A DNA stretch of 64,000 nt, taken from positions 30,479 to 94,478 of the forward strand of contig CAYYLQ010000007.1 in the NCBI GenBank assembly GCA_964472655.1. The letters are read 5' to 3'. The DNA is from an uncultured Nitrospirales bacterium (GTDB lineage: Bacteria > Nitrospirota > Nitrospiria > Nitrospirales > NS-4). This document shows positions 3,300 through 64,000 of the stretch, piece after piece. The position numbers were made by a program, and so were the translations under genes. Under the pieces are notes generated by a model. It was not told the DNA's origin, did no database searches, and saw only the letters and a program-made list of their open reading frames with translations. Position 1 is the first letter of the stretch, and the number at the start of each line of letters is the position of its first letter.

Positions 3300-5092
3300 T
3301 ATCTGTCAGCTGGTTTTTCGGCAAGCTCATTCAGCGCAGAGCACCAGGTTTTCGCCCAGGCAGGATCATGGTTCGCATAATTCTGCACCACTTTCTTTCT
3401 GGCTTCCTGCACCGCTTCAGATCCCCACCAAGACCACGGGTCAGAATAGACCTTCGCTAGATGAGCTGCGGCACTTTCGGGCGTCTCGTGCAACACCTGA
3501 GCTTCACGAAGAGCAGTAAAAACCGGAATCGCTGTGTCTCTAATTTCCCATCTTGCCGGATCCCAAAATAAGATGGAAGGCTTGTTGGCGGCCAGGGCCT
3601 CAAGCATGGTTGTAGAGTTATGATCGATTACGACTAATTTGCTGCTTAACATACTGTGCTGAAAAGGCCGTCCTAGATTATCCAATCTCAGTGAAGGGTA
3701 CTGATCCCTTAGACGGTTGACATGAGCCCAGCCGTAATCCTGTGGACGAGGTCGCCAAACGATCTGAGTCCGGAGCGACTCTGGAAGTGCACACATAAAA
3801 CGTCGCTGCCACATAAAGTATTCTTCAAACTGAGGTCCGAGAGGAATACTGCCAAAACGCAGAAGATACCGCGGATAGATGGTGCTGACCAAGAGGACCT
3901 GTTGAGACTGCGAAGCGAAAGAGTCTTGGAGTTCTTTGATATTTGCTAACTTAGCTGCAGGGAGTGGCTGTATTTTTTCTGTGGCACGCCAACCCCAGGA
4001 CCAATATCTGTCACAGGTCGCCACTTCATGCTCTTCAACTGGCATGCGTTTATAGATTCCATACGCACCGTGTTGAATTCTCACCAGGATCGTTCCTCGA
4101 TTCACCATTTCCGCAGCATAAACCTTGAACCTTTCATTGAAGTGCAAATACTCTGTGTCACTGGCCAGTACCCTAGGCGCACAATGCCTCTCGGCCTTTT
4201 TCAAGTATACCTTCAACTGTTCCAAGTACGCAGACGGGAGGTTCTGGACTAAAAGTCTGGAAACCATCACTTCAAAATCGTCACCGCTTAAAAGACTAGA
4301 TAAGGATTTCCGAACGTCATTATCGACCATTACTGGAGTGGCCTGGTTCTCTTCTGCTACGGCCGCAAGCGGGAAATACTGGAACCGTGAGGCTGCGATG
4401 AACCTTATGCGATCTCTTGAAGGAAGAAACAAATACAGTTGAACTGGATTCCTGGCGCTGATATAGGCAGGCAAATAACAAAGAAGTGCTTTTTTGATGA
4501 ATTGATAAAGACTGCCGGTTGGCCTTGACTGAAGCCTTTGAAGTTGTCGCAATTGCCGCCTTTTCATCGGCACACCAAGGACCTCCAGCATCTGCGTCAT
4601 TAACTGAAGATTGTACGCATCATCCAGCGAAAGATATGTGAACTCTTCGAAGGTATATGGTGTTACATAACACTTGCTCGAAAGACCAATAGTCTCGACA
4701 TCGGAGACCAAGGCCAACGCATCTTTCAGGCAGGTATATCTGTCCTTTAGGATAGCCAGGAAATGTTGCAGCCATGGACCAATAATGATCCTCCAATACC
4801 GGACGTCCCTATTCAGATTGTGGGTCTGATTTAACCATTCTGCCAAGCTCTGCAAAAAACGCTCATGCAGAATTTGTAACTCCTTATAAGCACCCTCTAC
4901 TCGTTCTTTCTGATCCCATGGATAAGGAAGGACTTTATAATGGAGTCTCTTGAAATCGAGTGGGCGATCATAGCGAAGACACCAAGATCCCAGAAAAAGG
5001 ATTTCTTGATCTTTGTCCCAGAATTCGCTCAGCGCAGTGGTCGCTAGAAACACGCTATCCTCACAGTCCCGTCTAACCTGACAAGATGACAA
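3299..5092 (-). CDS. Large uncharacterised protein, putative GT-B-like transferase of the nonulosonate operon
   Basis: 597-aa ORF abutting its neighbours and visibly lower in GC. Only the C-terminal segment VVIDHNSTTMLEALAANKPSILFWDP resembles a GT-B nucleotide-sugar-binding half. From memory it resembles the Leptospira LIC12162-type putative transferase family; this is unverified. Confidence 0.55.
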   Translation of the reverse strand: MSSCQVRRDCEDSVFLATTALSEFWDKDQEILFLGSWCLRYDRPLDFKRLHYKVLPYPWDQKERVEGAYKELQILHERFLQSLAEWLNQTHNLNRDVRYWRIIIGPWLQHFLAILKDRYTCLKDALALVSDVETIGLSSKCYVTPYTFEEFTYLSLDDAYNLQLMTQMLEVLGVPMKRRQLRQLQRLQSRPTGSLYQFIKKALLCYLPAYISARNPVQLYLFLPSRDRIRFIAASRFQYFPLAAVAEENQATPVMVDNDVRKSLSSLLSGDDFEVMVSRLLVQNLPSAYLEQLKVYLKKAERHCAPRVLASDTEYLHFNERFKVYAAEMVNRGTILVRIQHGAYGIYKRMPVEEHEVATCDRYWSWGWRATEKIQPLPAAKLANIKELQDSFASQSQQVLLVSTIYPRYLLRFGSIPLGPQFEEYFMWQRRFMCALPESLRTQIVWRPRPQDYGWAHVNRLRDQYPSLRLDNLGRPFQHSMLSSKLVVIDHNSTTMLEALAANKPSILFWDPARWEIRDTAIPVFTALREAQVLHETPESAAAHLAKVYSDPWSWWGSEAVQEARKKVVQNYANHDPAWAKTWCSALNELAEKPADR

Positions 5093-5776
5093 TTACTTTA
5101 TTGCGATCGTGCCTGGTTCTGCTCTCTGACCTTCAACTATCAATGATTCGAGTAATGTTGTTCTTCTTCTGGCATAATCTTCATCGATATAAAGTTGTCC
5201 AGATTTGAAAACTAACCCAGGAACCAATCTATAGATGTTTATGCAGTGGAATAACTGAAGGGCCAGATAATGCTTGTGATGAGCGTCAAGAGGTCGCACA
5301 TTGTTTATGCCGATCGCAAAAGAATTGTCAGGAATATCTTTGTTAATGAATGAATTTGCCCCAATGATGACGTTATTGCCAATTTTAATCTTTCCAGATA
5401 TCACAGCACCTGCATAGATTCTGACGAGATGCCCAAGCGAGGGCTTTCCAACGGTAGGTCCACCAACTCGCATATTTCTTCCATCAGTCCCAATAGTTAC
5501 ATTCTGTCCTATTTCACAGTCTGCACCAATTTCTTCTGCACTCAAAGTAATTCCATATGGATGAGGTATCATGCACCCATGCAATAAAAAGTACATGGGC
5601 GGCTCGCATTCGCATGCCAGCTGGAGTCTGTCTTCGTATGAAAAATTGCCGGTGAATCTTTTATATATTCGCTGCAGCGATTTCAAAGGCGTGTAGAAGA
5701 TACCAAGCCTGCGTTCTCCATTTGTGCAGTGTTTTTTGATAAGTTCTGGCGTAAGCGGTAAAAGGCGTCTTCCCAT
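5093..5776 (-). CDS. Left-handed beta-helix (hexapeptide-repeat) acetyltransferase, serine-acetyltransferase-like
   Basis: Hexapeptide repeats EIGQNVTIGTDG...IYAGAVISGKIKIGNNVIIGANSFINKDIPDNSFAIG. Confidence 0.75.
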   Translation of the reverse strand: MGRRLLPLTPELIKKHCTNGERRLGIFYTPLKSLQRIYKRFTGNFSYEDRLQLACECEPPMYFLLHGCMIPHPYGITLSAEEIGADCEIGQNVTIGTDGRNMRVGGPTVGKPSLGHLVRIYAGAVISGKIKIGNNVIIGANSFINKDIPDNSFAIGINNVRPLDAHHKHYLALQLFHCINIYRLVPGLVFKSGQLYIDEDYARRRTTLLESLIVEGQRAEPGTIAIK

Positions 5777-5862
5777 GATAACTTCACTATGATTTAGATT
5801 ATGTTTTGGGGGTTGTTAGCTTACCTGCAAGTGTACAAATAGGGCGTTGTTGGCAATTCTTC

Positions 5863-6498
5863 TTAATATCCGTGCAATCTTCGTTTAAGAATTTGTTCAG
5901 CCAGCCAGAAGTCGAATTCGTCATCAATCTCCACGTTCTGCGCGCGATCGAGTAGCATCCGCTCGATGCGATCTCCATAGCGATCGCCCTGCCTGACGAG
6001 GTCTGCTTTTATGACATAGACATTTCCGTCGTCGTAGAAAAACCCATCAATGTTCTGGCGTCGTAATTCGTTCTTCCCATACTCGACATACTTGCAGATG
6101 AAGCCGGTTGCAAGGGAATCTGCCTTCGTCTGGAGGAATCGCTCGATGCAGCGATCAATCAGACCCTGCTCCCTGATCGGCGAGGTTGCTTGAAGGAGAA
6201 CTATTGTATCCGCCTGCATCTTTTGGAGGACGTGCTGGAGGACGCTGAGCGTTGTTGCTTCATCTGTAGCCAACTCCTTCGGTCGTTCAAGAACCTCGGC
6301 GCCATTTTTTCTGGTCACTTCAGCAATCTCCGGATCTTCCGTCGAGACCACGTAGCGGTCTAAAAGTCGAGAGGCCAGCGCCGCTTCAATGGTCCACGCT
6401 ATAAGGGGCTTTCCGCCTATCGGCCTGATATTTTTTCTTGGGATCCCTTTACTGCCCCCCCGAGCCGGCGTGACTCCTAAAATCATCGTCATGCCCAT
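5863..6498 (-). CDS. CMP-nonulosonate synthetase (acylneuraminate cytidylyltransferase, NeuA/PseF/LegF family)
   Basis: ILGVTPARGGSKGIPRKNIRPIGGKPLIAWTIEAA signature. An alternative ATG at 6492 forms an ATGA overlap with the upstream stop, so the true start may be 6492. Confidence 0.8.
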   Translation of the reverse strand: MGMTMILGVTPARGGSKGIPRKNIRPIGGKPLIAWTIEAALASRLLDRYVVSTEDPEIAEVTRKNGAEVLERPKELATDEATTLSVLQHVLQKMQADTIVLLQATSPIREQGLIDRCIERFLQTKADSLATGFICKYVEYGKNELRRQNIDGFFYDDGNVYVIKADLVRQGDRYGDRIERMLLDRAQNVEIDDEFDFWLAEQILKRRLHGY

Positions 6499-7154
6499 TC
6501 GTCTCTAATCACCATGAAGGCTTCGGCTGCATGAAACCCTACTTCCATTCCCCTTTTTTGGGCCAGGACTTCGATTCCCTTGGTCGAACGCGGGTGTGGA
6601 AACTCCCGCAGTTCTCGCTTGTAAGCCTTCAATGCGTGGACCTTTCTGTCCAAGAAGTCGCTGATGTTTATGTAAAAATTCGGTTGAAAGGCGTACTCAG
6701 GGAAAGGCGGTGCGATATCTGTGGCAGACGGAACTTCATAAGTGAGGATGCGGGGAACCTTGTATTGACAAGTGCTCCGGCAGGCCACCATCGAAGCGTG
6801 ACAAACTGCACGGTGGTCCTGATTGGAATCCCCTCGGTGATGGGTATAGACCACCGAGGGCCGCATTTTGATGACGAGCTCTTCTATTGGATCAATCAGG
6901 TCCAAGAGACGCTCATCAAGGAGTTCATCACGTAGATCGAGAAATTGAATCCCCCCGTAACCGAGGACTTTCGCCGCCTGTGTGGCTGCATCCTTTTCTT
7001 CCTGAACAATCTGTGGATCAAACTGATGATTGTAGGCCCGCTTGCAGGCTATACAGGCCGTCACCTCATCCCCAGCTGCTACGTGCTTGGCGATGGTGCC
7101 TCCCATTCCGAGAACCTCATCGTCCATATGGGCGGAGATTACCAGTACCTTCAC
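6489..7154 (-). CDS. PIG-L/LmbE family N-acetyl-sugar deacetylase
   Basis: VLVISAHMDDEVLGMGGTIAKH and HHRGDSNQDHR motifs. I place the start at GTG 7154 (GTGA overlap with the upstream stop 7151-7153) rather than the track's 7214. Confidence 0.8.
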   Translation of the reverse strand: MKVLVISAHMDDEVLGMGGTIAKHVAAGDEVTACIACKRAYNHQFDPQIVQEEKDAATQAAKVLGYGGIQFLDLRDELLDERLLDLIDPIEELVIKMRPSVVYTHHRGDSNQDHRAVCHASMVACRSTCQYKVPRILTYEVPSATDIAPPFPEYAFQPNFYINISDFLDRKVHALKAYKRELREFPHPRSTKGIEVLAQKRGMEVGFHAAEAFMVIRDEWA

Positions 7155-8146
7155 GATCGACTCCCGCTCAGTTCCTTCGCGCGTTCTCGAATCAATCTCA
7201 CGATCCGTTCGCACCCCTTGCCATCGACAAGCTGTTTTCCGCAGCGGCTCATGGCACCCCTCGTTTCAACATCTTCAGCTAAGGCATCTACGGATTGAGG
7301 CAGCCGCGTATAGTCCAGCCTTCCTCCAAACCCAAGGTTTAATACAGTCCCGGCCTTTTCAAGCCGTGCAGCCGTTTCAACTTCAAACGGCTCCGCACAG
7401 ACGACAAGGCCCGGGGTTCCCACGCAGAGCAACTCAAACATAGTGAGCCCGGCTGCAGTAATCGCCAGGTCCGCGTTCCACATCAGCTCAGCCATGTTGC
7501 GCGCGTTTCGTACCACCGTCAGGTCCAATGACGAAGCCTCTGTCGCTGATCGCAATTCCGCCTCATGCTTGAAGGCGGGGCCGATGATCACCGTGCAGTG
7601 CGGCCGGGTCATCATGCCCTCCAACGCGCGAATGATCCTAGACGTGAACCCGTGGGTGTCGCTTCCGCCCTGGGCGATGAACAATTCCTGCACTTCATCA
7701 TTAATTCTCTTGGATCGGCCATGAATCTCCTGAAACTCATTCCGCAGTGCAATGTAGCGCGGATCGGTGACGGCATCCGGAGTGTAATAAAGAGAATTCA
7801 CCCTCAAATCGGCAAGTTTTGCCCCTTCTCCGGCGTCATCGATCGTAACAAGAAGATCTGTAAGTCCTTTGAGGGATTTGATGTACGTCGGATCGTTATT
7901 CAGCTTGTTGACTAGAATGACGTCCGGGCGGAAAGCGCGAAGCGCCTGTCGCTCATTCTCATGCGCCGCCACTGCGTGAAACCGATACCCTCTCTCCGTG
8001 ATAGCAGCGATGGCCTCGTCTCCTCCCGAAATGACGAAGAGAATTTCATCAGCCTGCTTGGCGCATTCGTCCGCTAACGCAAGCGAACCCATAACGTCTC
8101 CCATGCCATGCTGGTGATTCCCTTCCGTTCTGAAGACGATACGCAT
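7151..8146 (-). CDS. PseG/SpsG-like nucleotide-sugar hydrolase (GT28 C-terminal fold)
   Basis: N-terminus MRIVFRTEGNHQHGMGDVMGSLALADE and C-terminal DLAITAAGLTMFELLCVGTPGLVV resemble UDP-sugar hydrolases of pseudaminic/legionaminic-type pathways. Lies directly downstream of the NeuB-like gene. Confidence 0.65.
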   Translation of the reverse strand: MRIVFRTEGNHQHGMGDVMGSLALADECAKQADEILFVISGGDEAIAAITERGYRFHAVAAHENERQALRAFRPDVILVNKLNNDPTYIKSLKGLTDLLVTIDDAGEGAKLADLRVNSLYYTPDAVTDPRYIALRNEFQEIHGRSKRINDEVQELFIAQGGSDTHGFTSRIIRALEGMMTRPHCTVIIGPAFKHEAELRSATEASSLDLTVVRNARNMAELMWNADLAITAAGLTMFELLCVGTPGLVVCAEPFEVETAARLEKAGTVLNLGFGGRLDYTRLPQSVDALAEDVETRGAMSRCGKQLVDGKGCERIVRLIRERAKELSGSRS

Positions 8147-8147
8147 G

Positions 8148-9191
8148 TCAGTCCAGCTTCTCCCAGGTGATCACTTCATCAGCCTTGATCGCCTGCTTGG
8201 CTCGCCTGCCCACCACAAGGTGCGCGAGTTTGGGAGGCACGCCGGTCCCGGGCCGTTTGACGATGATCTTGTCTTTGGTGATCACCTCGCCTGGCTTGAG
8301 ATCCGTACGGGCGATGACACTTTTACGAGTCTCCGCTCTCATGTCCTGCTCCGATGGTACCGGACGCTTCACGCCAGAACCCAGCGCCTGCTCCAATTCC
8401 CGGATGGACCGCACAAGCGTCTTCATCTCGGCCGGATCGGCGGAAAAGAAGGCGTCTGGCACGTTGAGATGCTTATCGAGAGTGAAGTGGCGCTCGATCA
8501 CTGACGCCCCAAGAGCCACCGCCCCAAGCGACGCGCTGAGCGTCGTAGTATGGTCTGAAAATCCTACCGTGACATTGAAAGCCTGCTGAAATGTGCGAAT
8601 CACGTTCAGGTTCACGCTGCGAAGGTCCAGAATCGGATAGTTGGAGACACAATGAAGGATCACGATCTGATCATTTCCGACAGACCGGATGGTCTGAACA
8701 GCTTCGTCCACTTCGGCCAATGTGCCCATGCCGGTGGAAAAGATGACCGGCTTGCCCTTTTCAGCGACGTACTTGATGAACGGGAGGTTGGTCAGGTCGT
8801 CAGAGCCAATCTTGTACACTTCCACCTGCAATCGTTCGAGTAGGTCCACATCGTCGAAGTAGCTCGGGGTCGAGAAGACCGTAACCTTCTTATCCCGCGC
8901 ATAGGCAAACAGTTCGCGATGAAGCTCCTCGGACATCTCGTACCGCTTGAACTCCTCAAACTGATTGGTCGCGCCGGCTTCTGCGGGAAAATCAGTATGC
9001 CGGGACACCACGGTCTCCGCCCGAAAGGTCTGAAACTTGACGGCGTCGACTCCACATTCAATCGCGGCATCGATCGAGGCCTTGGCCTCGTTAGGCGTGG
9101 TGAAGTTGTAGCCGATCTCAGCGATGATGAAGACAGGGTGCCCTTCCCCAACCAGCCTCTCCCCGATTTTGACAGGACGCATGGGTACCAT
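8148..9191 (-). CDS. NeuB-family nonulosonate synthase (PEP condensing enzyme) with C-terminal SAF domain
   Basis: FIIAEIGYNF, GVDAVKFQTF, ILHCVSNYP and VGFSDHTT motifs, plus a SAF-like tail SVIARTDLKPGEVITKDKIIVKRPGTG. 347 aa. Confidence 0.9.
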   Translation of the reverse strand: MVPMRPVKIGERLVGEGHPVFIIAEIGYNFTTPNEAKASIDAAIECGVDAVKFQTFRAETVVSRHTDFPAEAGATNQFEEFKRYEMSEELHRELFAYARDKKVTVFSTPSYFDDVDLLERLQVEVYKIGSDDLTNLPFIKYVAEKGKPVIFSTGMGTLAEVDEAVQTIRSVGNDQIVILHCVSNYPILDLRSVNLNVIRTFQQAFNVTVGFSDHTTTLSASLGAVALGASVIERHFTLDKHLNVPDAFFSADPAEMKTLVRSIRELEQALGSGVKRPVPSEQDMRAETRKSVIARTDLKPGEVITKDKIIVKRPGTGVPPKLAHLVVGRRAKQAIKADEVITWEKLD

Positions 9192-9910
9192 TATTCGAAG
9201 ACGTGATCTATGGTCTCTACCCCAACGCCTTTGATGACGTCGAGACTGGCCGGACCGTAATTGAAGAGCAAGTCAATCGCCGACATCGCAGGGAGAAACG
9301 GTTCGTACAGTTGCTTGTAAATGGGGTGGTGAAATTCCTGGAACTGTACACATATCCCTGCGTCTGTGAACAATTTCACGCCAAGGTAGTCTCTTCCGGA
9401 CACGCCGGATAAATAGACCGAAGCGCCGACCTTATGACAAATATCCAGGAGCAGATCGCCTCGGTTCCCTTTGACGTTGAGCTCCGATGATTTCACGACT
9501 TTCACGTCTACCGAGAATGCATCCAGCATATGTCTGATAATCGCCTCGTTTATTTCAACGAGTCGCGTCCAATTAGTTTTGTAAAGTCGATCGAAAAATC
9601 CTTCGTGGAGCGACCAATATTTCGCTTTTCGATAGTGTTGAGCGATGCTTGCCAAACATTTTTCTTTCCACCGGGGACTGCCCTGGTTGTTGATCTGGAC
9701 CTCATTGATCGCCTGGTCGGCATTCCCCTTAGTCAGCACAGGCACCGTCAACCAAAAAGCTCCATTGGCGGTCCGAATCCTGTTGCGGTTCTGAAAGTAG
9801 TTCTTCCGGTACTGCACGTGGTCCAGCATCACAAACACATCCGCCTGTCTAATCTTGTCGAAGAAGCCAAGCCAAGGCAGATGTTCTGGCTGGTGAATGG
9901 TCACGACCAT
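9191..9910 (-). CDS. WbqC family protein (function unknown, O-antigen associated)
   Basis: MVVTIHQPEHLPWLGFFDKIRQADVFVMLDHVQYRKNYFQNRNRI is the characteristic WbqC-like N-terminus. Shares 1 nt with the neuB-like start. Confidence 0.75.
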   Translation of the reverse strand: MVVTIHQPEHLPWLGFFDKIRQADVFVMLDHVQYRKNYFQNRNRIRTANGAFWLTVPVLTKGNADQAINEVQINNQGSPRWKEKCLASIAQHYRKAKYWSLHEGFFDRLYKTNWTRLVEINEAIIRHMLDAFSVDVKVVKSSELNVKGNRGDLLLDICHKVGASVYLSGVSGRDYLGVKLFTDAGICVQFQEFHHPIYKQLYEPFLPAMSAIDLLFNYGPASLDVIKGVGVETIDHVFE

Positions 9911-9947
9911 AGCGAATTACAGACCGCTCTGATTGAACGGTTAGGGT

Positions 9948-11003
9948 TCAGCGTCCTACCACATCAGGGCGATTGATTAGCTTCTCGACCGGAATGAAGG
10001 CATCACCCATCTTCTCCAACACGCGATGGGTTTTCCTGGGGAGATAACAGTGTTTGCAGGGTTCCAAAAGTTCAACGCCACGATGCTGCAGATGAATAGC
10101 ACGCGCCTCCGCCATCCGCGGTCCATGCCAAACGTCGTACAGTGAATCTTTATTGGCGTCTCCAAGCGGGTGCATGCCCATCTCATCATTGGAGCACAGC
10201 AGGATCTTCCCGTCTGATCCGATGACCAGCCGCTGATAGAGAACCGGGCATGTAAAGTTCTCCAGGTATTCAATCTCATCATCTTTCCGCAAATAATCCA
10301 CGAGCGGATTGGACGCAATGTGATCAACGTAAGGCTCAAAGAGATCGTAAAACTCTTGCGCACAATCTTTGATGGATGGCCAGACCGGTTGAATCTTGAT
10401 AACGGGCTTCACAGATCCAGTTTCATCTTTGATGCGTTTGTATGACTTGATCTTCTCCACTGCTTCTTCAAACTTCGCCGGAGCGCGTATCTCTTCATAG
10501 GTCTTGTCCATACCATCGAACGAAATCGTGAGCCAATCCAAACCGGCTTCCATGAGTTCCTTGAACATAAGAGCGTTGAGCCGCAGGCCGTTTGTGAGGG
10601 TCGACACTTCTTTGATCCCTGCCTGCTTGGCGTATCGAGTCATCTCTACAATGTGCTTATTCAAAAACGGCTCGCCTCGGAGACTCAGCCGGATCGAATA
10701 GCATCCATACCTGGCGCACTCGTCCACAATTTTCTTGAAGAGATCAAACGACATGATCTTCTTCTTGACGCTCTGATCGAACTCCTCCGTGATGGTGTAG
10801 CACATCGGGCATGTCATGTCGCACACAGCCGAAAGCTCCACGTCCACGTGGTCGGGAAACCTCGACACCTGGCGCAACCGAGGATAGAAATGCCAAATGA
10901 ACCGATTACTGAGGTATGCCCAAAGATGTCCAGACCCGCGCCTTAAGTGGAACTGGAACCGTTTCCATTGAGACAGGTGAATCTGGTCAGCATTTATTTT
11001 CAT
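9948..11003 (-). CDS. Radical SAM enzyme with C-terminal SPASM/twitch-like Cys cluster
   Basis: CxxxCxxC cluster in AVCDMTCPMCY. C-terminal cysteines occur in FTCPVLYQ...ILLCSNDEMG...EPCKHCYLP. Confidence 0.8.
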   Translation of the reverse strand: MKINADQIHLSQWKRFQFHLRRGSGHLWAYLSNRFIWHFYPRLRQVSRFPDHVDVELSAVCDMTCPMCYTITEEFDQSVKKKIMSFDLFKKIVDECARYGCYSIRLSLRGEPFLNKHIVEMTRYAKQAGIKEVSTLTNGLRLNALMFKELMEAGLDWLTISFDGMDKTYEEIRAPAKFEEAVEKIKSYKRIKDETGSVKPVIKIQPVWPSIKDCAQEFYDLFEPYVDHIASNPLVDYLRKDDEIEYLENFTCPVLYQRLVIGSDGKILLCSNDEMGMHPLGDANKDSLYDVWHGPRMAEARAIHLQHRGVELLEPCKHCYLPRKTHRVLEKMGDAFIPVEKLINRPDVVGR

Positions 11004-11027
11004 CAGACAACTCCAGGGAAATGCAAT

Positions 11028-11972
11028 CTATTTCAAGATATCATCCACCCTATCCCATTCCGCGTCGGCTTTGGCTACTCGAGCCTTGTACCATTCGACG
11101 TATCGTTTTACGCCCTCTTCAAAACTGACTTTCGGTTCCCATCCCAACTCGGTTTTGGCCAACTGACTGGAGACTTCCTTGCCGGAGAAGTCACCGGGGC
11201 GTGCCGGCACGTATTCGATCTTGACGTTGCCGATGACCTTCTGAACAGTCTCGGCAATCTGCTTGATCGTGACTTTTTCGCTTCCGTCCAGGTTGTAAAT
11301 CTTGTTCTTAGCTACGGACTTGAGAGCCAAGACATTACCCTCGGCCAGATCCTCGACATACACGAACTTCCTGAATTGCATGCCGTCCCCAGCGATGGTC
11401 AAAGGCTCGCCACGCATGGCCTTACTCACGAAGATAGGAACCACCGCGCCATCACGAGCGCGCGGACCATAAGGGATGCCGTAGCGCAGAATGGTCACAG
11501 GCAGGTTATACAGTTTGCTGTAAGACTGGCAGTAATACTCTGATGCGATCTTCGTAGCCGTATACAGGTGTGAGGGAGCGTGCAGTGGTGTCTGTTCATC
11601 CACATACTGTTCTGCGACTTCGCTATACACCCAAGTCGTACTCCCATATATGACCCGCTTGATGCTCTTGGCGCGGCGGGCAGCTTCAAGGACATTGATC
11701 GTTCCCCTGACATTGATGGACTCGGAGTAATGCGGATCTTCAAACACATCTTTCACATCGGCCACGGCTGCTAAATGAAAGATGGCCTCGATGCCGCTCA
11801 TCGCCATCTTGAGAGCCTCGAGATCAAGCAGACTGCCGTGATAAAACTCGATATCATCTCGAAAGGAGGGCATCACCATGTCGAAGACCCGGACTTCGAC
11901 GCCTTTATCACGCAGCTTATCCACTACATGCGAGCCGATAAAACCAGATCCGCCTGTCACAAGCACCTTCAT
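11028..11972 (-). CDS. NAD-dependent sugar epimerase/dehydratase (extended SDR, GalE-like)
   Basis: VLVTGGSGFIGSHVVDKL (GxxGxxG) and YxxxK in HLYTATKIASEYY. Confidence 0.85.
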   Translation of the reverse strand: MKVLVTGGSGFIGSHVVDKLRDKGVEVRVFDMVMPSFRDDIEFYHGSLLDLEALKMAMSGIEAIFHLAAVADVKDVFEDPHYSESINVRGTINVLEAARRAKSIKRVIYGSTTWVYSEVAEQYVDEQTPLHAPSHLYTATKIASEYYCQSYSKLYNLPVTILRYGIPYGPRARDGAVVPIFVSKAMRGEPLTIAGDGMQFRKFVYVEDLAEGNVLALKSVAKNKIYNLDGSEKVTIKQIAETVQKVIGNVKIEYVPARPGDFSGKEVSSQLAKTELGWEPKVSFEEGVKRYVEWYKARVAKADAEWDRVDDILK

Positions 11973-58052: not shown

Positions 58053-58937
58053 TTATCGATCGAACTGGAGCCTGGCAAGGGCGAAGGGGTTGACGCGCGA
58101 GCCGTTGAGCCAGGCGCCCCAGTGCAGATGCGGACCGGTGGCGCGGCCGGACTGGCCGACCGTCCCGATCACGGCCCCCCGCTTCACCCGCTCCCCCTCC
58201 TTGACCGCCGTCGTGTCCAGATGAAAGTACATCGTGAAGAGCCCGAGGCCGTGGTCGAGGATGACCCCTTTGCCACTGAAGAAGTGCTCGTCCACCATCC
58301 GGACGACGCCGTCGTTCGTCGCCTTGACCGGCGCCCCTCGCTCCGCCGCAATGTCCTCGCCGTTGTGCTGGTTGCGCGGCTGGCCGTTCAGGATGCGCTT
58401 GCTGCCGAAGGCCCCGGTGGGCGTCCCCTCTACCGGCACCAGAAACCCCGCGCCCCAGAGCCGTTCCGGCGTAAAGCCCGCGAGCACGGCCTTCACCTTT
58501 CCCTTCTCCAGATCGATCCGCTCCAAGGCTGCGGCGTCGGGGTCAACTTGGTTCTTCGGCAAGGTCATGGATTGTACGCGGAACTCTTCGGCCTGCACGG
58601 AGACTCGAAACACCCGCTTCCGCACGCCGTCCAGATACGTGATCTCCGCGTTCAGATTCGCCGTGTTGGGAGCGTCGGCCATGTCAATCCCCACCAACGC
58701 GCCGAACTCGCCCGCCCGTCCCGTTTTGAAAAACGGCACCAGCCGCTCGCGGAACCGCCCCTGTACCGACGTCGGCTCTCCCTCGACGTGCAATGTGAGA
58801 TAGAGCACCTCCCCCTGCTTCGCATGGAGCGGCTTCTCGGCAGGCGCGCCGTCGCAGAGCCCGTCCGCCGCGATCAGGCACCAGAGCGATGCCGGCACCA
58901 GCAATGATGTGAACAGGTAGCGACGCCGGCGCAACAC
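58053..58937 (-). CDS. M23 family (LytM-type) metallopeptidase with signal peptide
   Basis: LDHGLGLFTMYFHLD and GRATGPHLHWG (HxxxD / HxH zinc site). N-terminal signal MLRRRRYLFTSLLVPASLWCLIAA. Confidence 0.85.
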   Translation of the reverse strand: MLRRRRYLFTSLLVPASLWCLIAADGLCDGAPAEKPLHAKQGEVLYLTLHVEGEPTSVQGRFRERLVPFFKTGRAGEFGALVGIDMADAPNTANLNAEITYLDGVRKRVFRVSVQAEEFRVQSMTLPKNQVDPDAAALERIDLEKGKVKAVLAGFTPERLWGAGFLVPVEGTPTGAFGSKRILNGQPRNQHNGEDIAAERGAPVKATNDGVVRMVDEHFFSGKGVILDHGLGLFTMYFHLDTTAVKEGERVKRGAVIGTVGQSGRATGPHLHWGAWLNGSRVNPFALARLQFDR

Positions 58938-58940
58938 AGG

Positions 58941-60317
58941 TTATCTGAATGCGCGCTGGCCTGAAACCTGGGACAGGAGTTCTTCCACGCGCCGGTTGGA
59001 GGCGCTGAAGGGGTCCATGCAGAGGATGGTTTCTTCCCAGTACCCGTTGAGCTTGAGATACGTCCAGTCCACCGTATAGGACCGGTTCTTCGCGCGGGCG
59101 AACCGGATGAAGTCCCCCCGGACCTTGGCGCGCGTCGTCTGAGGCGGGTTCGTCATGGCGTGCTGCACGGCGTCCTCGGACACCATCCGCTCCGCCATCT
59201 CCTGCTTCTCCAGCAAGTAATAGAGCCCCCGGGTCCGCTTCACGTCATGATACTGGAGGTCCATCATCGTGATCCGGGGATCGTCCCACCCGCATTCTTT
59301 TTTCTCCATGTATTGGAGCATGAGCCGCTTTTTAATGACCCAATCCAGTTCCTGGCAGAGCTGCATGGGATCGTCCTCGAGCCGGTTGAGGATGTCTTCC
59401 CACTGGCGCACGACGGCGGCGGCGACCGGATCCTCGTCCAGGGACCAGAGATACTCCATGGCGCGCTCCAGGTAGACGCGCTGGATTTCGATGGCCGTCA
59501 TCTCCCGCCCGTCCTCGAGCTTGATCTTCTTCTTGAGCGTCGTGTCGCGGGCGATCTCGCGGATGGCCTTGACGGGATCATCCAGCTCCATGTGTGTCAC
59601 GGTGTACCCGTCCTCGATCATCGAGAGCACCATCGCCGCCGTCCCGACTTTGAGGTAGGTGGCGACTTCCGACATGTTCGAATCGCCGACGATGATGTGG
59701 AGCCGCCGGTACTTTTCCGCGTCAGCGTGCGGCTCGTCCCTGGTATTGATGATGCTGCGGGACGACGTGGTGGACGACGACGTCTTTTCGTGGATATGCT
59801 GGGCCCGCTGGGAGATGAAGAGCTGGGCCTTGCCGGAGACCTTGAGGACCTTGCCGGCGCCGGCGAAGATCTGCCGCGTCACGAAGAACGGAATGAGCTG
59901 CTCGGTGACCTTCCAGAAATCCACGTCCCGCCGCATCAGAAAATTCTCATGGCAGCCGTACGTGTTGCCCAGCGAGTCCGTGTTGTTCTTGAAGATGTAG
60001 ATCTCGCCTGAGAGGCCCTCTTCGCGCAGGCGCTCCTCGGCGGCGGGCAGGCAGGCTTCCAGCAGACGCTCCCCCGCCTTGTCATGCACGACCAGGTCTT
60101 CGATGTTGTCGCACTCCGGCGTCGAATACTCGGGGTGGCATCCGGTGTCCTGATAGAAGCGCGCGCCGTTCACGAGGAACGCGTTCGAGGGCCAGCTGTT
60201 GGGGATGAGGCCTTCGAAGATGTAACCGAGGATTTTTTCGATGGGGAGGTAGATGCGCCCGTTCGGAGAGAAGATCAGGCCGTACTCGTTTTCCAGGCCG
60301 AAGATGCGCGGCTTCAT
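58941..60317 (-). CDS. pafA: Pup--protein ligase (PafA) of the Pup-ligase/Dop family
   Basis: MKPRIFGLENEYGLIF N-terminus of the carboxylate-amine ligase family, 458 aa. Start ATG 60317 forms an ATGA overlap with the prcA stop. Called PafA rather than Dop from its position after prcA and its shorter length. Confidence 0.8.
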   Translation of the reverse strand: MKPRIFGLENEYGLIFSPNGRIYLPIEKILGYIFEGLIPNSWPSNAFLVNGARFYQDTGCHPEYSTPECDNIEDLVVHDKAGERLLEACLPAAEERLREEGLSGEIYIFKNNTDSLGNTYGCHENFLMRRDVDFWKVTEQLIPFFVTRQIFAGAGKVLKVSGKAQLFISQRAQHIHEKTSSSTTSSRSIINTRDEPHADAEKYRRLHIIVGDSNMSEVATYLKVGTAAMVLSMIEDGYTVTHMELDDPVKAIREIARDTTLKKKIKLEDGREMTAIEIQRVYLERAMEYLWSLDEDPVAAAVVRQWEDILNRLEDDPMQLCQELDWVIKKRLMLQYMEKKECGWDDPRITMMDLQYHDVKRTRGLYYLLEKQEMAERMVSEDAVQHAMTNPPQTTRAKVRGDFIRFARAKNRSYTVDWTYLKLNGYWEETILCMDPFSASNRRVEELLSQVSGQRAFR

Positions 60318-61009
60318 GGTGAATTCAAAAGAGCTCTCGCTTCTCCGAGGGCGATCCGGCGGAAGGTGCGGCCCGGCTTGGTGCGGTCCAGGACGGCCAC
60401 CTCCAGGCCTTCCGTCGCCAGCTTCTGGTTCGTGACGGTATTCAACGCGTCGATGCTCAGTTTCAGCGCATCCCGCAGCGAGATGGCCACGGACGTCCAC
60501 CGGCTTTTCAGGAATGTCATCAGGGCTTCGGACTTCCCGCCAATCACCGCCACGCCCCGCTCGTCAATGATGCTCCCGTCGAAGGAGATCCTGTACAGCT
60601 CGTTGGGCTTGCCGTCCTGGCCCACCTCGACGACCAAGAGCTCCACTTCGAGGGGTTTCGGATCGGCGCTGAAGAGGCTCCCGATGCTTTGCGAGTAGGC
60701 ATTGGCCAGCGATTTGGCCGTCACGTCCTCCCGGCTGTAGGTGTACCCCTTGAGGTCGGCGTGCCGGATGCCGGCCTTGCGCAGCATCTCGAATTCGTTG
60801 TACTTGCCGGCGCCGGAAAACGCGATCCGGTCGTACATCTCGGAAATCTTGTGCAGCGACGCGCTGGGGTTGTCCGCCACCAGTAGCACGCCGTCGGCGT
60901 ATTCCATCGCAACGATCGAACGGCCCTTGGCGATGCCCTTCTTCGCATACTCGGCCTTGTCGGCCATCATCTGTTCCGGCGAGACGTAGTAGGGAAGCGC
61001 CATCGTCAA
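60314..61009 (-). CDS. prcA: Proteasome subunit alpha
   Basis: MTMALPYYVSPEQMMADKAEYAKKGIAKGRSIVAMEY..., 231 aa, directly downstream of prcB with a 4-nt overlap. Confidence 0.9.
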   Translation of the reverse strand: MTMALPYYVSPEQMMADKAEYAKKGIAKGRSIVAMEYADGVLLVADNPSASLHKISEMYDRIAFSGAGKYNEFEMLRKAGIRHADLKGYTYSREDVTAKSLANAYSQSIGSLFSADPKPLEVELLVVEVGQDGKPNELYRISFDGSIIDERGVAVIGGKSEALMTFLKSRWTSVAISLRDALKLSIDALNTVTNQKLATEGLEVAVLDRTKPGRTFRRIALGEARALLNSP

Positions 61010-61818
61010 CCCCTCTCGCGCCGCTCGGCGATCAAGGCGCTGCAGCCTTCGCCGATTTTGGATTCTTCCAGGTCGCGGATGCCCGCGTCGGTGATCACCT
61101 TCATGGTGGGGTAGATGCCCCGGACCAGGTCGGGCCCCCCCGTGCCCACGTCCTCCTCGGACGCGTTGTACAGCGCCTCCAAGGCGATGCGCAGCGCCTG
61201 CGCTTCCGTGAGCCCGCGCCGGTACAGCTGCTTCATCGTGTCGCGGGCGTCCTTGCCGCCGGAGCCCGTCGCATGGTATTCGGTTTCCTCATAGCGCCCG
61301 CCGGTCACGTCGTATTTGAAGATCCGCCCCTCGCGCCGCTTGAGATCGTACCCGGCGAAGAGCGGGATCACCACCAGCCCCTGGAACGCCATGGGCAAAT
61401 TCCCCCGCACCATCTGGCTCAGCTTGTTGGCCTTGCCCTCGCACGACAGCACGTCACCCTCCAGTTTTTCGTAGTGCTCCAACTCGACCTGGAAGAGGCG
61501 CGCCAGTTCCATGGCAGGCCCCGCCGCGCCGGCGATGGCGACGGCCGAATGCGCGTCTGTCTTGAACACCTTCTCGATGCGGCGCCCGGAAACCTGGAAC
61601 CCCTCGGTCGCCTGGCGGTCGCCGGCCATCAACACGCCGTCCTGGAATCGAATCGCCAGCACGGTGGTGCCGTGCGAAAACGCCGGCAAGCCGGCGGCGG
61701 GCGTTCCGGAAGCAGGCGCAGGAGCGCCCGCCCGGGGAATCGGCAACGGAGCATTGGCTCCCCGGCCCATAAGGAAATCGTAGAAGCTGGACCCGTGATC
61801 GTCGAGAAAGAGAGGCAC
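61006..61818 (-). CDS. prcB: Proteasome subunit beta (with propeptide)
   Basis: Propeptide VPLFLDDHGSSFYDFL... followed by the active-site Thr context FSHG/TTVLAIRFQDGVLMAGDRQAT. Start placed at GTG 61818. The track's 393-aa ORF runs out of frame into dop. Confidence 0.9.
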   Translation of the reverse strand: MPLFLDDHGSSFYDFLMGRGANAPLPIPRAGAPAPASGTPAAGLPAFSHGTTVLAIRFQDGVLMAGDRQATEGFQVSGRRIEKVFKTDAHSAVAIAGAAGPAMELARLFQVELEHYEKLEGDVLSCEGKANKLSQMVRGNLPMAFQGLVVIPLFAGYDLKRREGRIFKYDVTGGRYEETEYHATGSGGKDARDTMKQLYRRGLTEAQALRIALEALYNASEEDVGTGGPDLVRGIYPTMKVITDAGIRDLEESKIGEGCSALIAERRERG

Positions 61819-61823
61819 CGCCG

Positions 61824-63305
61824 TCAGGCCTTCAGGTTGCCCAGCAGGGCGTCCACCGTCTCGGACTCGTCCAGCAGACCCTTGGTGAGGGCCTCGGTGC
61901 CGCGCAGTGGTTCCATGAGGGGAACCTTCTTGATCACCGCATTGCCGACGTCGAAGAGCACCGAGGTCCAACTCGCCGCGTAGACTTCCTGCGGCCACTT
62001 CTTCACGCAGGCCGCCCGAAAATACGCGCGGGTGTCGAGCGGCGCGACGGTCTCCGCATGCCGGACTTCCTCGTCCATGACGATGCGCTCCACGCGGTTG
62101 GCGCGCTCCAAGGTGAAGTACAGCCCCTTCTCGGGCCGGACGTCGTGGTACTGGAGATCCATCATCGCCACCCGCGGGTCCTCCCACCCGCAGCCCTTGC
62201 GGTCCAGGTAGGATTCGATCAGCTCCCGCTTGGCCACCCAGTCCAGCTCGCGGACGAGTTCGCGAGGGTCGCGCGCCAGTTTGTCGAGAGTCTCTTCCCA
62301 GCGGATGAGGACTTCCTTGACGGGCAGGGTCAGCTCATGGCTCGCGTAATAGTCCTGCGCCGCCTTGAGATAGGCGCGCTGCACGGCGATCGCCGTCGTC
62401 GTCTTGCCGCCAGCGAGTCGCAGATCGGCCTTCACCGCCAAGTCGCGCGACACCGCCTTGATCGCGTGGACGGGGTCTTCCAGCTCGATCGCCGGGAGCG
62501 CCCAGTTGTCTTCGATCATATCCAGCACGATCGACATCGCGCCCACCTTCAGGAAGGTCGCACACTCCGCCATGTTGACGTCCCCCGCGATGACGTGAAG
62601 CCGCCGGTACTTGGCGGGATCGGCATGGGGCTCGTCCCGCGTGTTGATGATCGGCCGCTTGACCATCGTGTTGAGGTCCATCAGCGTCTCGAAGAAGTCC
62701 GCCCGCTGCGAGATCTGATAGACGGCCGGCGATGTTTGATTCTCCGTCCCGACCTTGCCGGCCCCCGCGTAAATCAGGCGCGTCACCAGGAACGGCACGA
62801 GGGCGCGGGCGACATGCTCGAAGGGGACGGCGCGGGCCACTAGATAGTTCTCGTGATACCCGTAGCTGTTGCCCTTGCCGTCCGTGTTGTTCTTGTAGAC
62901 GAGCAGGCTGCCGGCCCCCCGCACCTGTTCCACCGCGCGCAAGGCGGCGGCGGCGATGCGCTCTCCCGCCTTTTCGTACAGGACGACATCCCGGGCGGTC
63001 GTGCATTCCGGCGTCGAGTATTCCGGGTGCGCCCCGTCCACGTACAGGCGTCCGCCGTTGGCCAGCACCTTGTTCAGCAGGCGATTGTAGTCCGGCCCCG
63101 GTCGCTCCCGCTCCCCCTCCACTTCGAAGCCGCGAATGTCGAGCAGCGGGTTCTCGTTCTCGTAGTCCCAAAGGATCTTGGGCGAGGGAAAGCCCGGGTA
63201 GTGATTGATCAGAAAAAGGGAATTGGATACGGGGTCCACGGACTCGGGGTCGCGGGTGGCGATCCCGAACTCCGTTTCAGTTCCGAAGGCTCGCTTGGTC
63301 GTCAT
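61824..63305 (-). CDS. dop: Depupylase/deamidase Dop (Pup-ligase family paralog)
   Basis: AFGTETEFGIA N-terminus, 493 aa (longer than the PafA paralog, consistent with the Dop-specific insertion). Position is between arc and prcB, as in actinobacteria. Confidence 0.8.
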   Translation of the reverse strand: MTTKRAFGTETEFGIATRDPESVDPVSNSLFLINHYPGFPSPKILWDYENENPLLDIRGFEVEGERERPGPDYNRLLNKVLANGGRLYVDGAHPEYSTPECTTARDVVLYEKAGERIAAAALRAVEQVRGAGSLLVYKNNTDGKGNSYGYHENYLVARAVPFEHVARALVPFLVTRLIYAGAGKVGTENQTSPAVYQISQRADFFETLMDLNTMVKRPIINTRDEPHADPAKYRRLHVIAGDVNMAECATFLKVGAMSIVLDMIEDNWALPAIELEDPVHAIKAVSRDLAVKADLRLAGGKTTTAIAVQRAYLKAAQDYYASHELTLPVKEVLIRWEETLDKLARDPRELVRELDWVAKRELIESYLDRKGCGWEDPRVAMMDLQYHDVRPEKGLYFTLERANRVERIVMDEEVRHAETVAPLDTRAYFRAACVKKWPQEVYAASWTSVLFDVGNAVIKKVPLMEPLRGTEALTKGLLDESETVDALLGNLKA

Positions 63306-63333
63306 GCGATGATCTCGGGCACGGCGGATCGCG

Positions 63334-64000
63334 TCAGAGGTAGTGGCCGGTGGTCACGGTCTCGATCCGCCGCGATTCGTGGGATCCGACCGTGATCGTC
63401 CGGACGTGGACGATCTTGTCGGCCTTCTTGCCGGCGATCTTCGCCCAGTCGTCCGGGTTGGTGGTGTTCGGCAGGTCTTCGTGCTCCTTGAATTCATCGC
63501 GGATGGCCCGCAGGAGATCGTCCGTCTTGAGGCCCCGTTCGCCGGTCGCGAGCAGGCGCTTGATGGCGTATTTCTTTGCCCGCGAGACAATGCCCTCGAT
63601 CAGCGCCCCGCTGGAGAAGTCCTTCATGTAGAAGGTCTCCTTGTCGCCGTTGGCGTATGTGACCTCCAGGTACTGGTTCTCCTCGCTAAGCGCGTACATG
63701 GATTCCACGGTCACCCCGGTCAGCCGCTCGACGAGCTTGGCGGTATCGCCGCCGTCCCGTTCCAGTTCTTCGGGATGCCAGGGCAGGTCCGGCGTCAGAT
63801 ACTTGGAGAAAATGTCCCGGGCAGCGGTCTTGTCCGGGCGATCGATCTTGATCTTGACGTCCAGCCGGCCCGGGCGCAAGACGGCCGGGTCGATGAGGTC
63901 CTGCCGGTTGCTGGCCCCGATCACGATCACGTTGTTCAGCCGCTCGACGCCGTCGATCTCCGACAGGAACTGGGGGACGATCGTGGACTCGACGTCGGAC
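63334..64000 (-). CDS. arc: Proteasome-associated AAA ATPase ARC/Mpa, C-terminal part (N-terminus beyond right edge)
   Basis: [33 protein letters not shown] (AAA sensor region) and a C-terminal ...TTGHYL tail resembling the Mpa GQYL proteasome-docking motif. The frame stays open to nt 64000. Confidence 0.9.

What the first reader, a model, noticed from the sequence alone, without database searches (positions are those of the whole stretch)
61806..63333. No room for a pup/UBact modifier gene: the dop stop and prcB start are 5 nt apart, and arc-dop are 28 nt apart
In the canonical actinobacterial order the small modifier gene lies between dop and prcB. Here dop ends at 61824 (TGA 61826-61824) and prcB starts at GTG 61818. 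Neither of the other two minus-strand frames across 61750-62040 contains an acidic 55-70-aa ORF ending in GGQ/GGE or RTGE. The arc-dop gap (63306-63333) and the prcA-pafA and pafA-M23 junctions are also closed. The modifier must therefore be encoded elsewhere, for example upstream of arc beyond the window. Otherwise this lineage uses a divergent tag or a tag-independent proteasome.
Basis: seen in the sequence. Interest (0 to 1): 0.6.

Follow-up and report, generated by a model that had tools for sequence, protein, structure and literature searches.

The report
Proteasome operon whose pup gene moved
This Nitrospira-group bacterium has an ordinary Pup-proteasome protein-degradation operon that does lack its small tag gene. 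An intact, canonical pup gene sits on another contig, at a spot shared by the whole order, so no new kind of tag or tag-free proteasome is needed.

Summary
On the minus strand, arc, dop, prcB, prcA, pafA and an M23 peptidase gene form one tightly packed string. The dop stop (61826-61824) and the prcB GTG (61818) are 5 nt apart, and no Pup- or UBact-like ORF lies in or next to the locus. Upstream of arc is thiE.

The tag gene is not missing from the genome. A 66-aa Pup ending in GGE (Pfam Pup 73.5 bits, TIGR03687 60.3 bits) lies on contig C5 between hppA and recJ, with its own sigma-70-like promoter and a strong Shine-Dalgarno site.

This layout is a trait of the whole order:
- All 54 pup-positive genomes of the 57 Nitrospirales sampled, including Nitrospira defluvii, have pup unlinked from dop. 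The distance is 43 kb to 1.37 Mb where both genes share a contig.
- All 30 Nitrospirales pup loci examined for synteny have it beside hppA and/or recJ.
- In 19 of 19 other Nitrospirota that have a strong Dop hit, dop-pup-prcB is kept.

pup is under strong purifying selection (dN/dS 0.02-0.13). UBact is absent from this genome.

Verdict: a known system with a relocated tag gene, ordinary in function. It is a modest exception to published statements that the gene order is rigidly conserved.

The parts
63334..64000 (-). arc/mpa, the proteasome AAA+ ATPase. This is the 3' part; the gene runs on beyond the window and is 588 aa in full, ending in ...TTGHYL.
   Evidence: TIGR03689 scores 299 bits on the window part and 749.4 bits on the full length taken from contig C7, against a cut-off of 504.75.
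63306..63333 (-). arc-dop intergenic gap of 28 nt. It holds no ORF.
   Evidence: ORF coordinates.
61824..63305 (-). dop, the depupylase/deamidase, 493 aa.
   Evidence: TIGR03688 scores 550.1 bits against a cut-off of 492.3.
61819..61823 (-). dop-prcB junction of 5 nt (CGGCG). This is the slot where pup lies in the canonical order; here it is empty.
   Evidence: Sequence. The same closed junction (1-37 nt) is seen in 9 of 10 other Nitrospirales loci.
61006..61818 (-). prcB, the 20S proteasome beta subunit. It has a GTG start, a propeptide with the SSFYDFL motif and a processing site at HG|TTV.
   Evidence: TIGR03690 scores 306.5 bits against a cut-off of 191.9. The GTG start is conserved in the family.
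60314..61003 (-). prcA, the 20S proteasome alpha subunit (ATG at 61003).
   Evidence: TIGR03691 scores 310.7 bits against a cut-off of 139.05.
58941..60317 (-). pafA, the Pup ligase. Its ATG at 60317 overlaps the prcA stop as ATGA.
   Evidence: TIGR03686 scores 563.1 bits against a cut-off of 551.3.
58053..58937 (-). M23 (LytM-type) peptidase gene, 3 nt after pafA. It is the last gene of the string.
   Evidence: M23-family NCBIfam hits. It keeps this position in Nitrospirales and in other Nitrospirota loci.

Best explanation
The window holds a complete, canonical Pup-proteasome operon (arc-dop-prcB-prcA-pafA, plus an M23 peptidase gene). Its tag gene was moved out of the dop-prcB slot in the common ancestor of the order Nitrospirales.

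The tag is a normal 66-aa Pup ending in Gly-Gly-Glu. It is encoded on another contig (C5) between the H+-pyrophosphatase gene hppA and recJ. It appears to be transcribed from its own conserved sigma-70-type promoter (TTGACG-18-TATGCT) and has a strong AGGAGG ribosome-binding site.

Inferred mechanism, from established knowledge of the mycobacterial system:
- PafA ligates the ready-made C-terminal glutamate of Pup to substrate lysines, so no deamidation is needed.
- Arc/Mpa binds Pup, unfolds the substrate and docks on the 20S core through its C-terminal GHYL tail.
- Dop acts as the depupylase.

Shown here: the gene content, the empty slot, the location, conservation and selection of pup, and the order-level boundary of the rearrangement. 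Inferred: transcription from the predicted promoter and the biochemistry.
For: - **Pup elsewhere in the genome.** The Pup HMM finds one strong match, G000:C5:30815-31009, at 72.6 bits with no stops. The ORF MEKQEKK...EEFIKNYVQKGGE scores 73.5 bits on PF05639 (cut-off 27) and 60.3 bits on TIGR03687 (cut-off 41.45).
- **No other candidate tag.** A scan of every ORF of 30-150 aa ending in GG[QE] or TG[QE] leaves only this candidate.
- **Enzymes and proteasome subunits.** All pass their equivalog cut-offs. Only two Dop/PafA-family genes exist in the genome, and both are in the window.
- **Order-wide trait.** 38 of 41 and then 16 of 16 further Nitrospirales genomes have one pup, never next to dop. 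In 23 genomes where both genes share a contig they are 43 kb to 1.37 Mb apart. One of these is the 4,317,083-bp Nitrospira defluvii genome, where the protein is publicly annotated as Pup.
- **Conserved new site.** All 30 Nitrospirales pup loci examined (L004-L033) have hppA and/or recJ beside pup.
- **Empty slot in relatives.** Ten other Nitrospirales operons are arc-dop-prcB-prcA-pafA-M23 without pup.
- **Ancestral state elsewhere.** 19 of 19 non-Nitrospirales Nitrospirota with a strong Dop hit have pup within about 150 nt downstream of dop. Loci L035, L037 and L045 show the full order arc-dop-pup-prcB-prcA-pafA-M23.
- **Same origin.** The Nitrospirales Pups share the N-terminal M[EA]KQE[KR]K and the whole C-terminal half with those in the canonical slot.
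- **Function retained.** dN/dS of pup against family orthologues is 0.02-0.13. A CTTGAC[GC]-N17/18-TA..[GC]T promoter-like element is kept upstream of pup in 24 of 28 complete upstream regions across the order and in 15 of 15 genomes of the family.
Against:
- The genome is a 54-contig draft, so the distance between pup (C5) and the operon (C7) is unknown.
- The promoter is a consensus match only.
- No 'empty site' (hppA next to recJ without pup) was found in outgroups. The route of the relocation, whether transposition or duplication followed by loss, is therefore not reconstructed.
Confidence: 0.93

Rival explanations
1. The lineage uses a divergent, unrecognised tag or a tag-independent proteasome. 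The enzymes in the operon would then act on something other than canonical Pup.
For: The dop-prcB slot is empty, and no small acidic ORF lies in or beside the operon.
Against: - An intact canonical pup with a GGE end exists in the same genome.
- It is under strong purifying selection.
- It co-occurs with Pup-type dop across the order: Pup in 38 of 41 genomes and Pup-type Dop in 36 of 41.
- PafA and Dop pass their equivalog cut-offs.
Confidence: 0.02
2. The pup on contig C5 is a binning or assembly contaminant from another organism, or a decaying relic. The genome would then effectively lack a tag.
For: The genome is a metagenome-style draft of 54 contigs, and pup and the operon lie on different contigs.
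Against: - The same hppA-pup-recJ arrangement is found in closed single-contig Nitrospirales genomes that carry the same pup-less operon.
- Same-genus orthologues are 91-98% identical in protein, with dS of 0.2-2 and dN/dS of 0.02-0.06.
- The genome's contamination estimate is 0.58%.
Confidence: 0.02
3. The relocated pup is functional, but its uncoupling is adaptive rather than neutral. The supply of tag would be regulated separately from the enzymes. In this family it would also be tied, through a conserved stop/start overlap, to a secreted Ig-like protein, giving pupylation a role beyond bulk proteasomal degradation.
For: - A promoter of pup's own is conserved.
- A terminator-like hairpin after hppA sits directly before that promoter in many Nitrospira.
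- A conserved [AG]TGA overlap joins the pup stop to the start of a 174-aa signal-peptide protein in 15 of 15 family genomes.
- An M23 cell-wall peptidase gene is kept at the end of the operon across Nitrospirota.
Against: - Nothing shows differential expression.
- The 174-aa gene is missing from the slot in the other Nitrospirales families examined, so it may be a hitch-hiker.
- Its fold is a generic beta-sandwich with no functional match.
Confidence: 0.15

Closest known systems
Actinobacterial Pup-proteasome system (Mycobacterium tuberculosis mpa, dop-pup-prcB-prcA, pafA; Streptomyces arc-dop-pup-prcB-prcA...pafA)
   Same: All six components are present and pass the NCBI equivalog models. The C-terminal half of Pup is nearly identical to Streptomyces Pup (DEIDDVLEENAE.F...VQKGG[EQ]). 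Arc has a GQYL-like tail (GHYL), and PrcB has a propeptide and Thr1.
   Different: pup is not between dop and prcB. It lies on another contig, between hppA and recJ, with its own promoter. pafA follows prcA directly, and an M23 peptidase gene closes the operon. The host is a diderm nitrite-oxidiser lineage.
Canonical Pup-proteasome loci of other Nitrospirota (for example loci L035, L037 and L045; Leptospirillum as drawn in Barandun et al. 2012, PMC3511204)
   Same: These are the same operon, including the terminal M23 gene. Protein identities are Dop 58-67%, PafA 74-79% and Pup 59-72%.
   Different: They keep pup in the 195-271-nt dop-prcB slot. In Nitrospirales the slot has collapsed to 1-37 nt.
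UBact-proteasome system (PF20513 / NF033388) of Gram-negative phyla, present as a second locus in Nitrospira defluvii
   Same: It is a homologous AAA ATPase, Dop-like, tag, beta, alpha, PafA-like operon. It is found in 14 of 41 Nitrospirales relatives.
   Different: It is absent from this genome: the best UBact score is 14.6 bits, and there is no second Dop/PafA pair. Where it is present, UBact stays linked between the dop-like and beta genes, unlike pup.
Proteasome-unlinked Pup and membrane PafA pairs of Planctomycetes and Plesiocystis (Iyer et al. 2008, PMC2588565)
   Same: They are another case in which the usual Pup-proteasome neighbourhood is broken.
   Different: There the tag stays next to its ligase and the proteasome is absent. 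Here the tag has left both the ligase and the proteasome genes, all of which are retained.

Membership tests
Pup-proteasome system | A small Pup protein matching PF05639/TIGR03687, with a C-terminal GG[EQ]. | tested here: met
   The 66-aa ORF at G000:C5:30812-31012 ends in GGE. PF05639 scores 73.5 bits (cut-off 27) and TIGR03687 scores 60.3 bits (cut-off 41.45).
Pup-proteasome system | PafA ligase and Dop depupylase as separate paralogues. | tested here: met
   TIGR03686 scores 563.1 bits (cut-off 551.3) for 58941-60314. TIGR03688 scores 550.1 bits (cut-off 492.3) for 61824-63305.
Pup-proteasome system | Proteasomal AAA+ ATPase (Mpa/Arc) with a C-terminal 20S-docking tail. | tested here: met
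   TIGR03689 scores 749.4 bits (cut-off 504.75). The C-terminus is ...TTGHYL. Equating GHYL with the mycobacterial GQYL motif rests on my own knowledge.
Pup-proteasome system | Bacterial 20S alpha and beta subunits, with a beta propeptide and catalytic Thr1. | tested here: met
   TIGR03690 scores 306.5 bits and TIGR03691 scores 310.7 bits. The HG|TTVLAIRF site is visible in the sequence.
Pup-proteasome system | Typical gene order dop-pup-prcB. Reviews call this order rigidly conserved, but it is not a functional requirement. | tested here: not met
   The dop-prcB gap is 5 nt. pup is on another contig. The same holds in every Nitrospirales genome sampled.
Pup-proteasome system | Covalent attachment of Pup to substrate lysines, followed by proteasomal degradation. 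| not testable with these tools
   This needs proteomics or in vitro reconstitution.
UBact-proteasome system | A UBact tag matching NF033388/PF20513, ending in R-T-G-[EQ]. | tested here: not met
   The best hit in G000 is 14.6 bits inside a 236-aa frame (cut-off 35). Relatives score 74-80 bits. No plausible TG[QE]-ending ORF was found.
UBact-proteasome system | A dedicated second set of Dop-like and PafA-like genes and proteasome genes. | tested here: not met
   G000 has only two Dop/PafA-family matches, both in the window. Relatives with UBact have 4-5.

The most novel reading that the evidence does not exclude
The order-wide removal of pup from its operon, onto a conserved promoter of its own, may be a regulatory innovation. 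It would let Nitrospirales set the supply of tag independently of the ligase, depupylase and proteasome. In this family pup is translationally coupled to a secreted Ig-like protein, and the operon ends in an M23 cell-wall peptidase gene. Together these could point to a link between pupylation and envelope homeostasis in a diderm bacterium.
Probability: 0.12. Interest if true: 0.5.

Novelty: new member of a known kind. Interest (0 to 1): 0.2.

Why it matters
This settles a recurring false alarm. Nitrospirales proteasome operons look tag-less, but they are not. Annotators and comparative studies should look for pup between hppA and recJ.

It also corrects a generalisation in the pupylation literature. 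Iyer et al. 2008 wrote that the Pup gene is 'invariably adjacent' to a PafA gene. Barandun et al. [quoted passage not shown] Here an entire order of environmentally important nitrite oxidisers, and apparently some Methylomirabilota as well, encode the tag apart from its enzymes.

Functionally the system looks ordinary, so the biological consequence is probably limited to regulation.

Tried and rejected
- **Pup or UBact hidden in or next to the operon.** None was found in any frame. Upstream of arc lies thiE after a 110-nt promoter-bearing spacer.
- **Second candidate tag elsewhere.** The whole-genome scan of GG[QE]/TG[QE]-ending ORFs gave only the C5 pup. The other nine are Arg/Pro-rich shadow frames. 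A 15-bit Pup hit on C1 lies inside a 149-aa frame and is noise.
- **Remnant of pup in the slot.** The one relative with a long dop-prcB gap (L098, 186-213 nt) holds a poly-C run and palindromic REP-like repeats, not pup.
- **An 'empty' hppA-recJ site in outgroups, to reconstruct the move.** recJ has other neighbours there, so nothing was learned.
- **Function of the 174-aa protein coupled to pup.** It has no Pfam family, and its only homologues are Nitrospirae hypothetical proteins. The AlphaFold model (mean pLDDT 71.7) is a generic beta-sandwich with only weak, non-specific PDB matches.
- **A 228-aa 'Pup' gene call fusing pup to this protein (P0103).** It looks like a frameshifted low-quality contig, not a real fusion.
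- **Literature.** Five full-text searches found no paper describing the Nitrospira pup relocation. The original UBact paper is not in the library.

Full report
**1. The observation**

The minus strand of 58053-64000 carries six tightly packed genes.
- The ORF table and the sequence show dop at 61824-63305 with its TGA at 61826-61824. Five bases follow, then a GTG at 61818 opens prcB.
- The other junctions are also closed. The arc-dop gap is 28 nt (63306-63333). The prcB-prcA gap is 2 nt. prcA and pafA overlap as ATGA at 60317-60314. The pafA-M23 gap is 3 nt.
- NCBIfam equivalog models identify every gene above its curated cut-off. Scores are Dop 550.1 (cut-off 492.3), PrcB 306.5 (191.9), PrcA 310.7 (139.05) and PafA 563.1 (551.3).
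- The full-length ATPase was recovered from the contig beyond the window and scores 749.4 against a cut-off of 504.75.
- The prcB start is credible. The N-terminus VPLFLDDHGSSFYDFL carries the propeptide motif. In the four other genomes of the same family that I examined, a GTG sits 4-7 nt after the dop TGA.
- No other minus-strand frame in 61750-62040 holds a Pup-like ORF.

**2. Where the tag is**

The window is G000:C7:30479-94478 of a 2.17-Mb, 62% G+C, 54-contig genome estimated to be 99% complete.
- A six-frame search of the whole genome with the Pfam Pup model gave one strong match on another contig, C5:30815-31009, at 72.6 bits with no stops.
- The ORF has the sequence MEKQEKKSDARRGGAQPKDEAKASAKVVETGKKLKEDMDKVMDEIDDVLEENAEEFIKNYVQKGGE. 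It is 66 aa long and is preceded by AGGAGG five bases before the ATG.
- It scores 73.5 bits on PF05639 and 60.3 bits on TIGR03687, the 'ubiquitin-like protein Pup' model with a cut-off of 41.45.
- My own scan of every 30-150-aa ORF ending in GG[QE] or TG[QE] left this as the only acidic, Pup-like candidate.
- Its neighbours are hppA (H+-pyrophosphatase, 889 bits) upstream and recJ downstream.
- UBact is absent. The best score is 14.6 bits, inside a 236-aa frame. The genome has only two Dop/PafA-family genes, both in the window.

**3. This is a trait of the order, not of this genome**

Named records place the genome in the order Nitrospirales. One relative, G038 at 4,317,083 bp, is Nitrospira defluvii, whose Pup is publicly annotated as CBK42955.1.
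- 38 of 41 Nitrospirales genomes have exactly one Pup match, and it is never beside dop. Sixteen further Nitrospirales genomes in a phylum-wide sample behave the same way.
- In the 23 genomes where both genes share a contig, they are 43 kb to 1.37 Mb apart. Examples are N. defluvii at about 213 kb and the closed genomes G025, G028, G031 and G034 at about 85-90 kb.
- All 30 Nitrospirales pup loci examined for synteny (L004-L033) have hppA and/or recJ beside pup.
- Ten other Nitrospirales proteasome loci read arc-dop-prcB-prcA-pafA-M23 without pup. Their dop-prcB gaps are 1-37 nt. The exception is L098, where 186-213 nt are filled by a poly-C run and palindromic repeats rather than by pup.
- The ancestral layout survives elsewhere in the phylum. 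All 19 non-Nitrospirales Nitrospirota that have both Pup and a strong Dop hit carry pup within about 150 nt downstream of dop. Two of them are of the same class but another order.
- Named loci such as L035, L037 and L045 show the full order arc-dop-pup-prcB-prcA-pafA-M23.
- The Nitrospirales Pups share the N-terminal M[EA]KQE[KR]K and the entire C-terminal half with those slot-encoded Pups.

The simplest history is a single relocation on the stem of Nitrospirales, not a separate acquisition. I could not reconstruct the route, because in outgroups recJ is not next to hppA.

**4. Is the relocated gene in use?**

- Against same-genus and same-family orthologues, pup shows dN/dS of 0.02-0.13 with dS up to about 2.
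- A promoter-like element lies 66 nt before the ATG in this genome (TTGACG-18-TATGCT).
- The element CTTGAC[GC]-N17/18-TA..[GC]T recurs upstream of pup in 24 of 28 complete upstream regions across the order and in 15 of 15 genomes of the window's family.
- In many Nitrospira a terminator-like hairpin that closes hppA lies immediately before this element.

These are consensus matches and conservation, not measured transcription.

**5. Mechanism**

From established knowledge of the mycobacterial system, a Pup ending in Glu is ligation-ready.
- PafA should phosphorylate and ligate it to substrate lysines.
- Arc should bind the Pup helix, unfold the substrate and dock on the 20S core through its C-terminal tail (GHYL here).
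- Dop should serve mainly as the depupylase.

Nothing in the sequences argues against this. The only difference from the textbook system is that the tag has its own transcription unit. Whether that matters for regulation is open.

**6. Comparison with the literature**

- Iyer et al. 2008 stated that Pup is 'invariably' adjacent to a PafA-family gene (PMC2588565).
- Barandun et al. [quoted passage not shown]
- Nitrospirales are a clade-wide exception. Two Methylomirabilota loci (L034 and L044) also show a pup without dop, prcB or pafA within 6 kb.
- Five full-text searches found no paper that describes this. The protein itself is, however, already annotated as Pup in public Nitrospira genomes.
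- Earlier notes of this scan on other Nitrospira genomes reached the same reading. I treat them as agreement, not as evidence, and re-derived each point here.

**7. Verdict**

The tag is encoded elsewhere, but not upstream of arc, and no divergent tag or tag-free proteasome is involved.
- This is a new member of a known kind with a relocated tag gene, ordinary in function and of low to moderate interest.

Noticed in passing
G000:C5:30291-30815 (L004 8292-8816, minus strand), outside the window: A 174-aa signal-peptide protein starts inside the pup stop: GAGTGA, with GTG overlapping the Glu codon and the TGA. This [AG]TGA overlap is conserved in 15 of 15 genomes of the window's family. The gene is missing from the slot in the other Nitrospirales families examined. 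It has no Pfam family, and its only homologues are Nitrospirae hypothetical proteins. The model is a generic Ig-like beta-sandwich.
   Followed up: partly
L107 (Nitrospira defluvii G038:C1:926000-942000), 4794-11565: A second, UBact-type proteasome locus reads AAA ATPase, Dop-like, UBact (...RQRTGE, NF033388 79 bits), beta, alpha, PafA-like. It is present in 14 of 41 Nitrospirales relatives and absent from the window's genome. In these genomes UBact stays linked to its enzymes while pup does not.
   Followed up: partly
window 58053-58937 (-): An M23/LytM-type peptidase gene sits 3 nt after pafA. It keeps this position both in Nitrospirales and in other Nitrospirota with the canonical order (L035, L037, L045). 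The pairing of a cell-wall peptidase with a cytoplasmic tagging and degradation operon is unexplained.
   Followed up: no
L098 (G039:C1) 4242-4430: In one closed relative the dop-prcB gap is widened to about 190-210 nt. The extra sequence is a run of about 30 C, an inverted repeat and a REP-like palindrome (GTAGGTCGGATTAGCGCAGCATAATCCGAC). It is not a pup remnant.
   Followed up: partly
L034 and L044 (Candidatus Methylomirabilota MAGs), pup at 6001-6198: Canonical Pup genes (53-62% identical, GGE end) have no dop, prcB or pafA within 6 kb. In L044 the neighbours are a molybdopterin oxidoreductase, a DUF6062 protein and a Na+/H+ exchanger; in L034 a ParA/NUBPL-type ATPase lies nearby. Unlinking of pup seems to have happened in a second phylum.
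   Followed up: partly
L003 3581-3689 (G000:C7 beyond the window end, upstream of arc): The 110-nt thiE-arc spacer carries TTGACC-17-TAGAAT. This is a likely promoter for the whole arc-dop-prcBA-pafA-M23 string.
   Followed up: no
G023 (same order, 98% complete): This relative has no Pup match and only the UBact-type Dop-like and PafA-like genes plus UBact. It appears to have lost the Pup system entirely and kept the UBact one.
   Followed up: no
L004 8194-8222 (minus strand), between the 174-aa gene and recJ: A near-consensus TTGACA-17-TATGAT site (11 of 12 matches) lies upstream of recJ. This suggests that pup plus the 174-aa gene form a separate two-gene unit.
   Followed up: no
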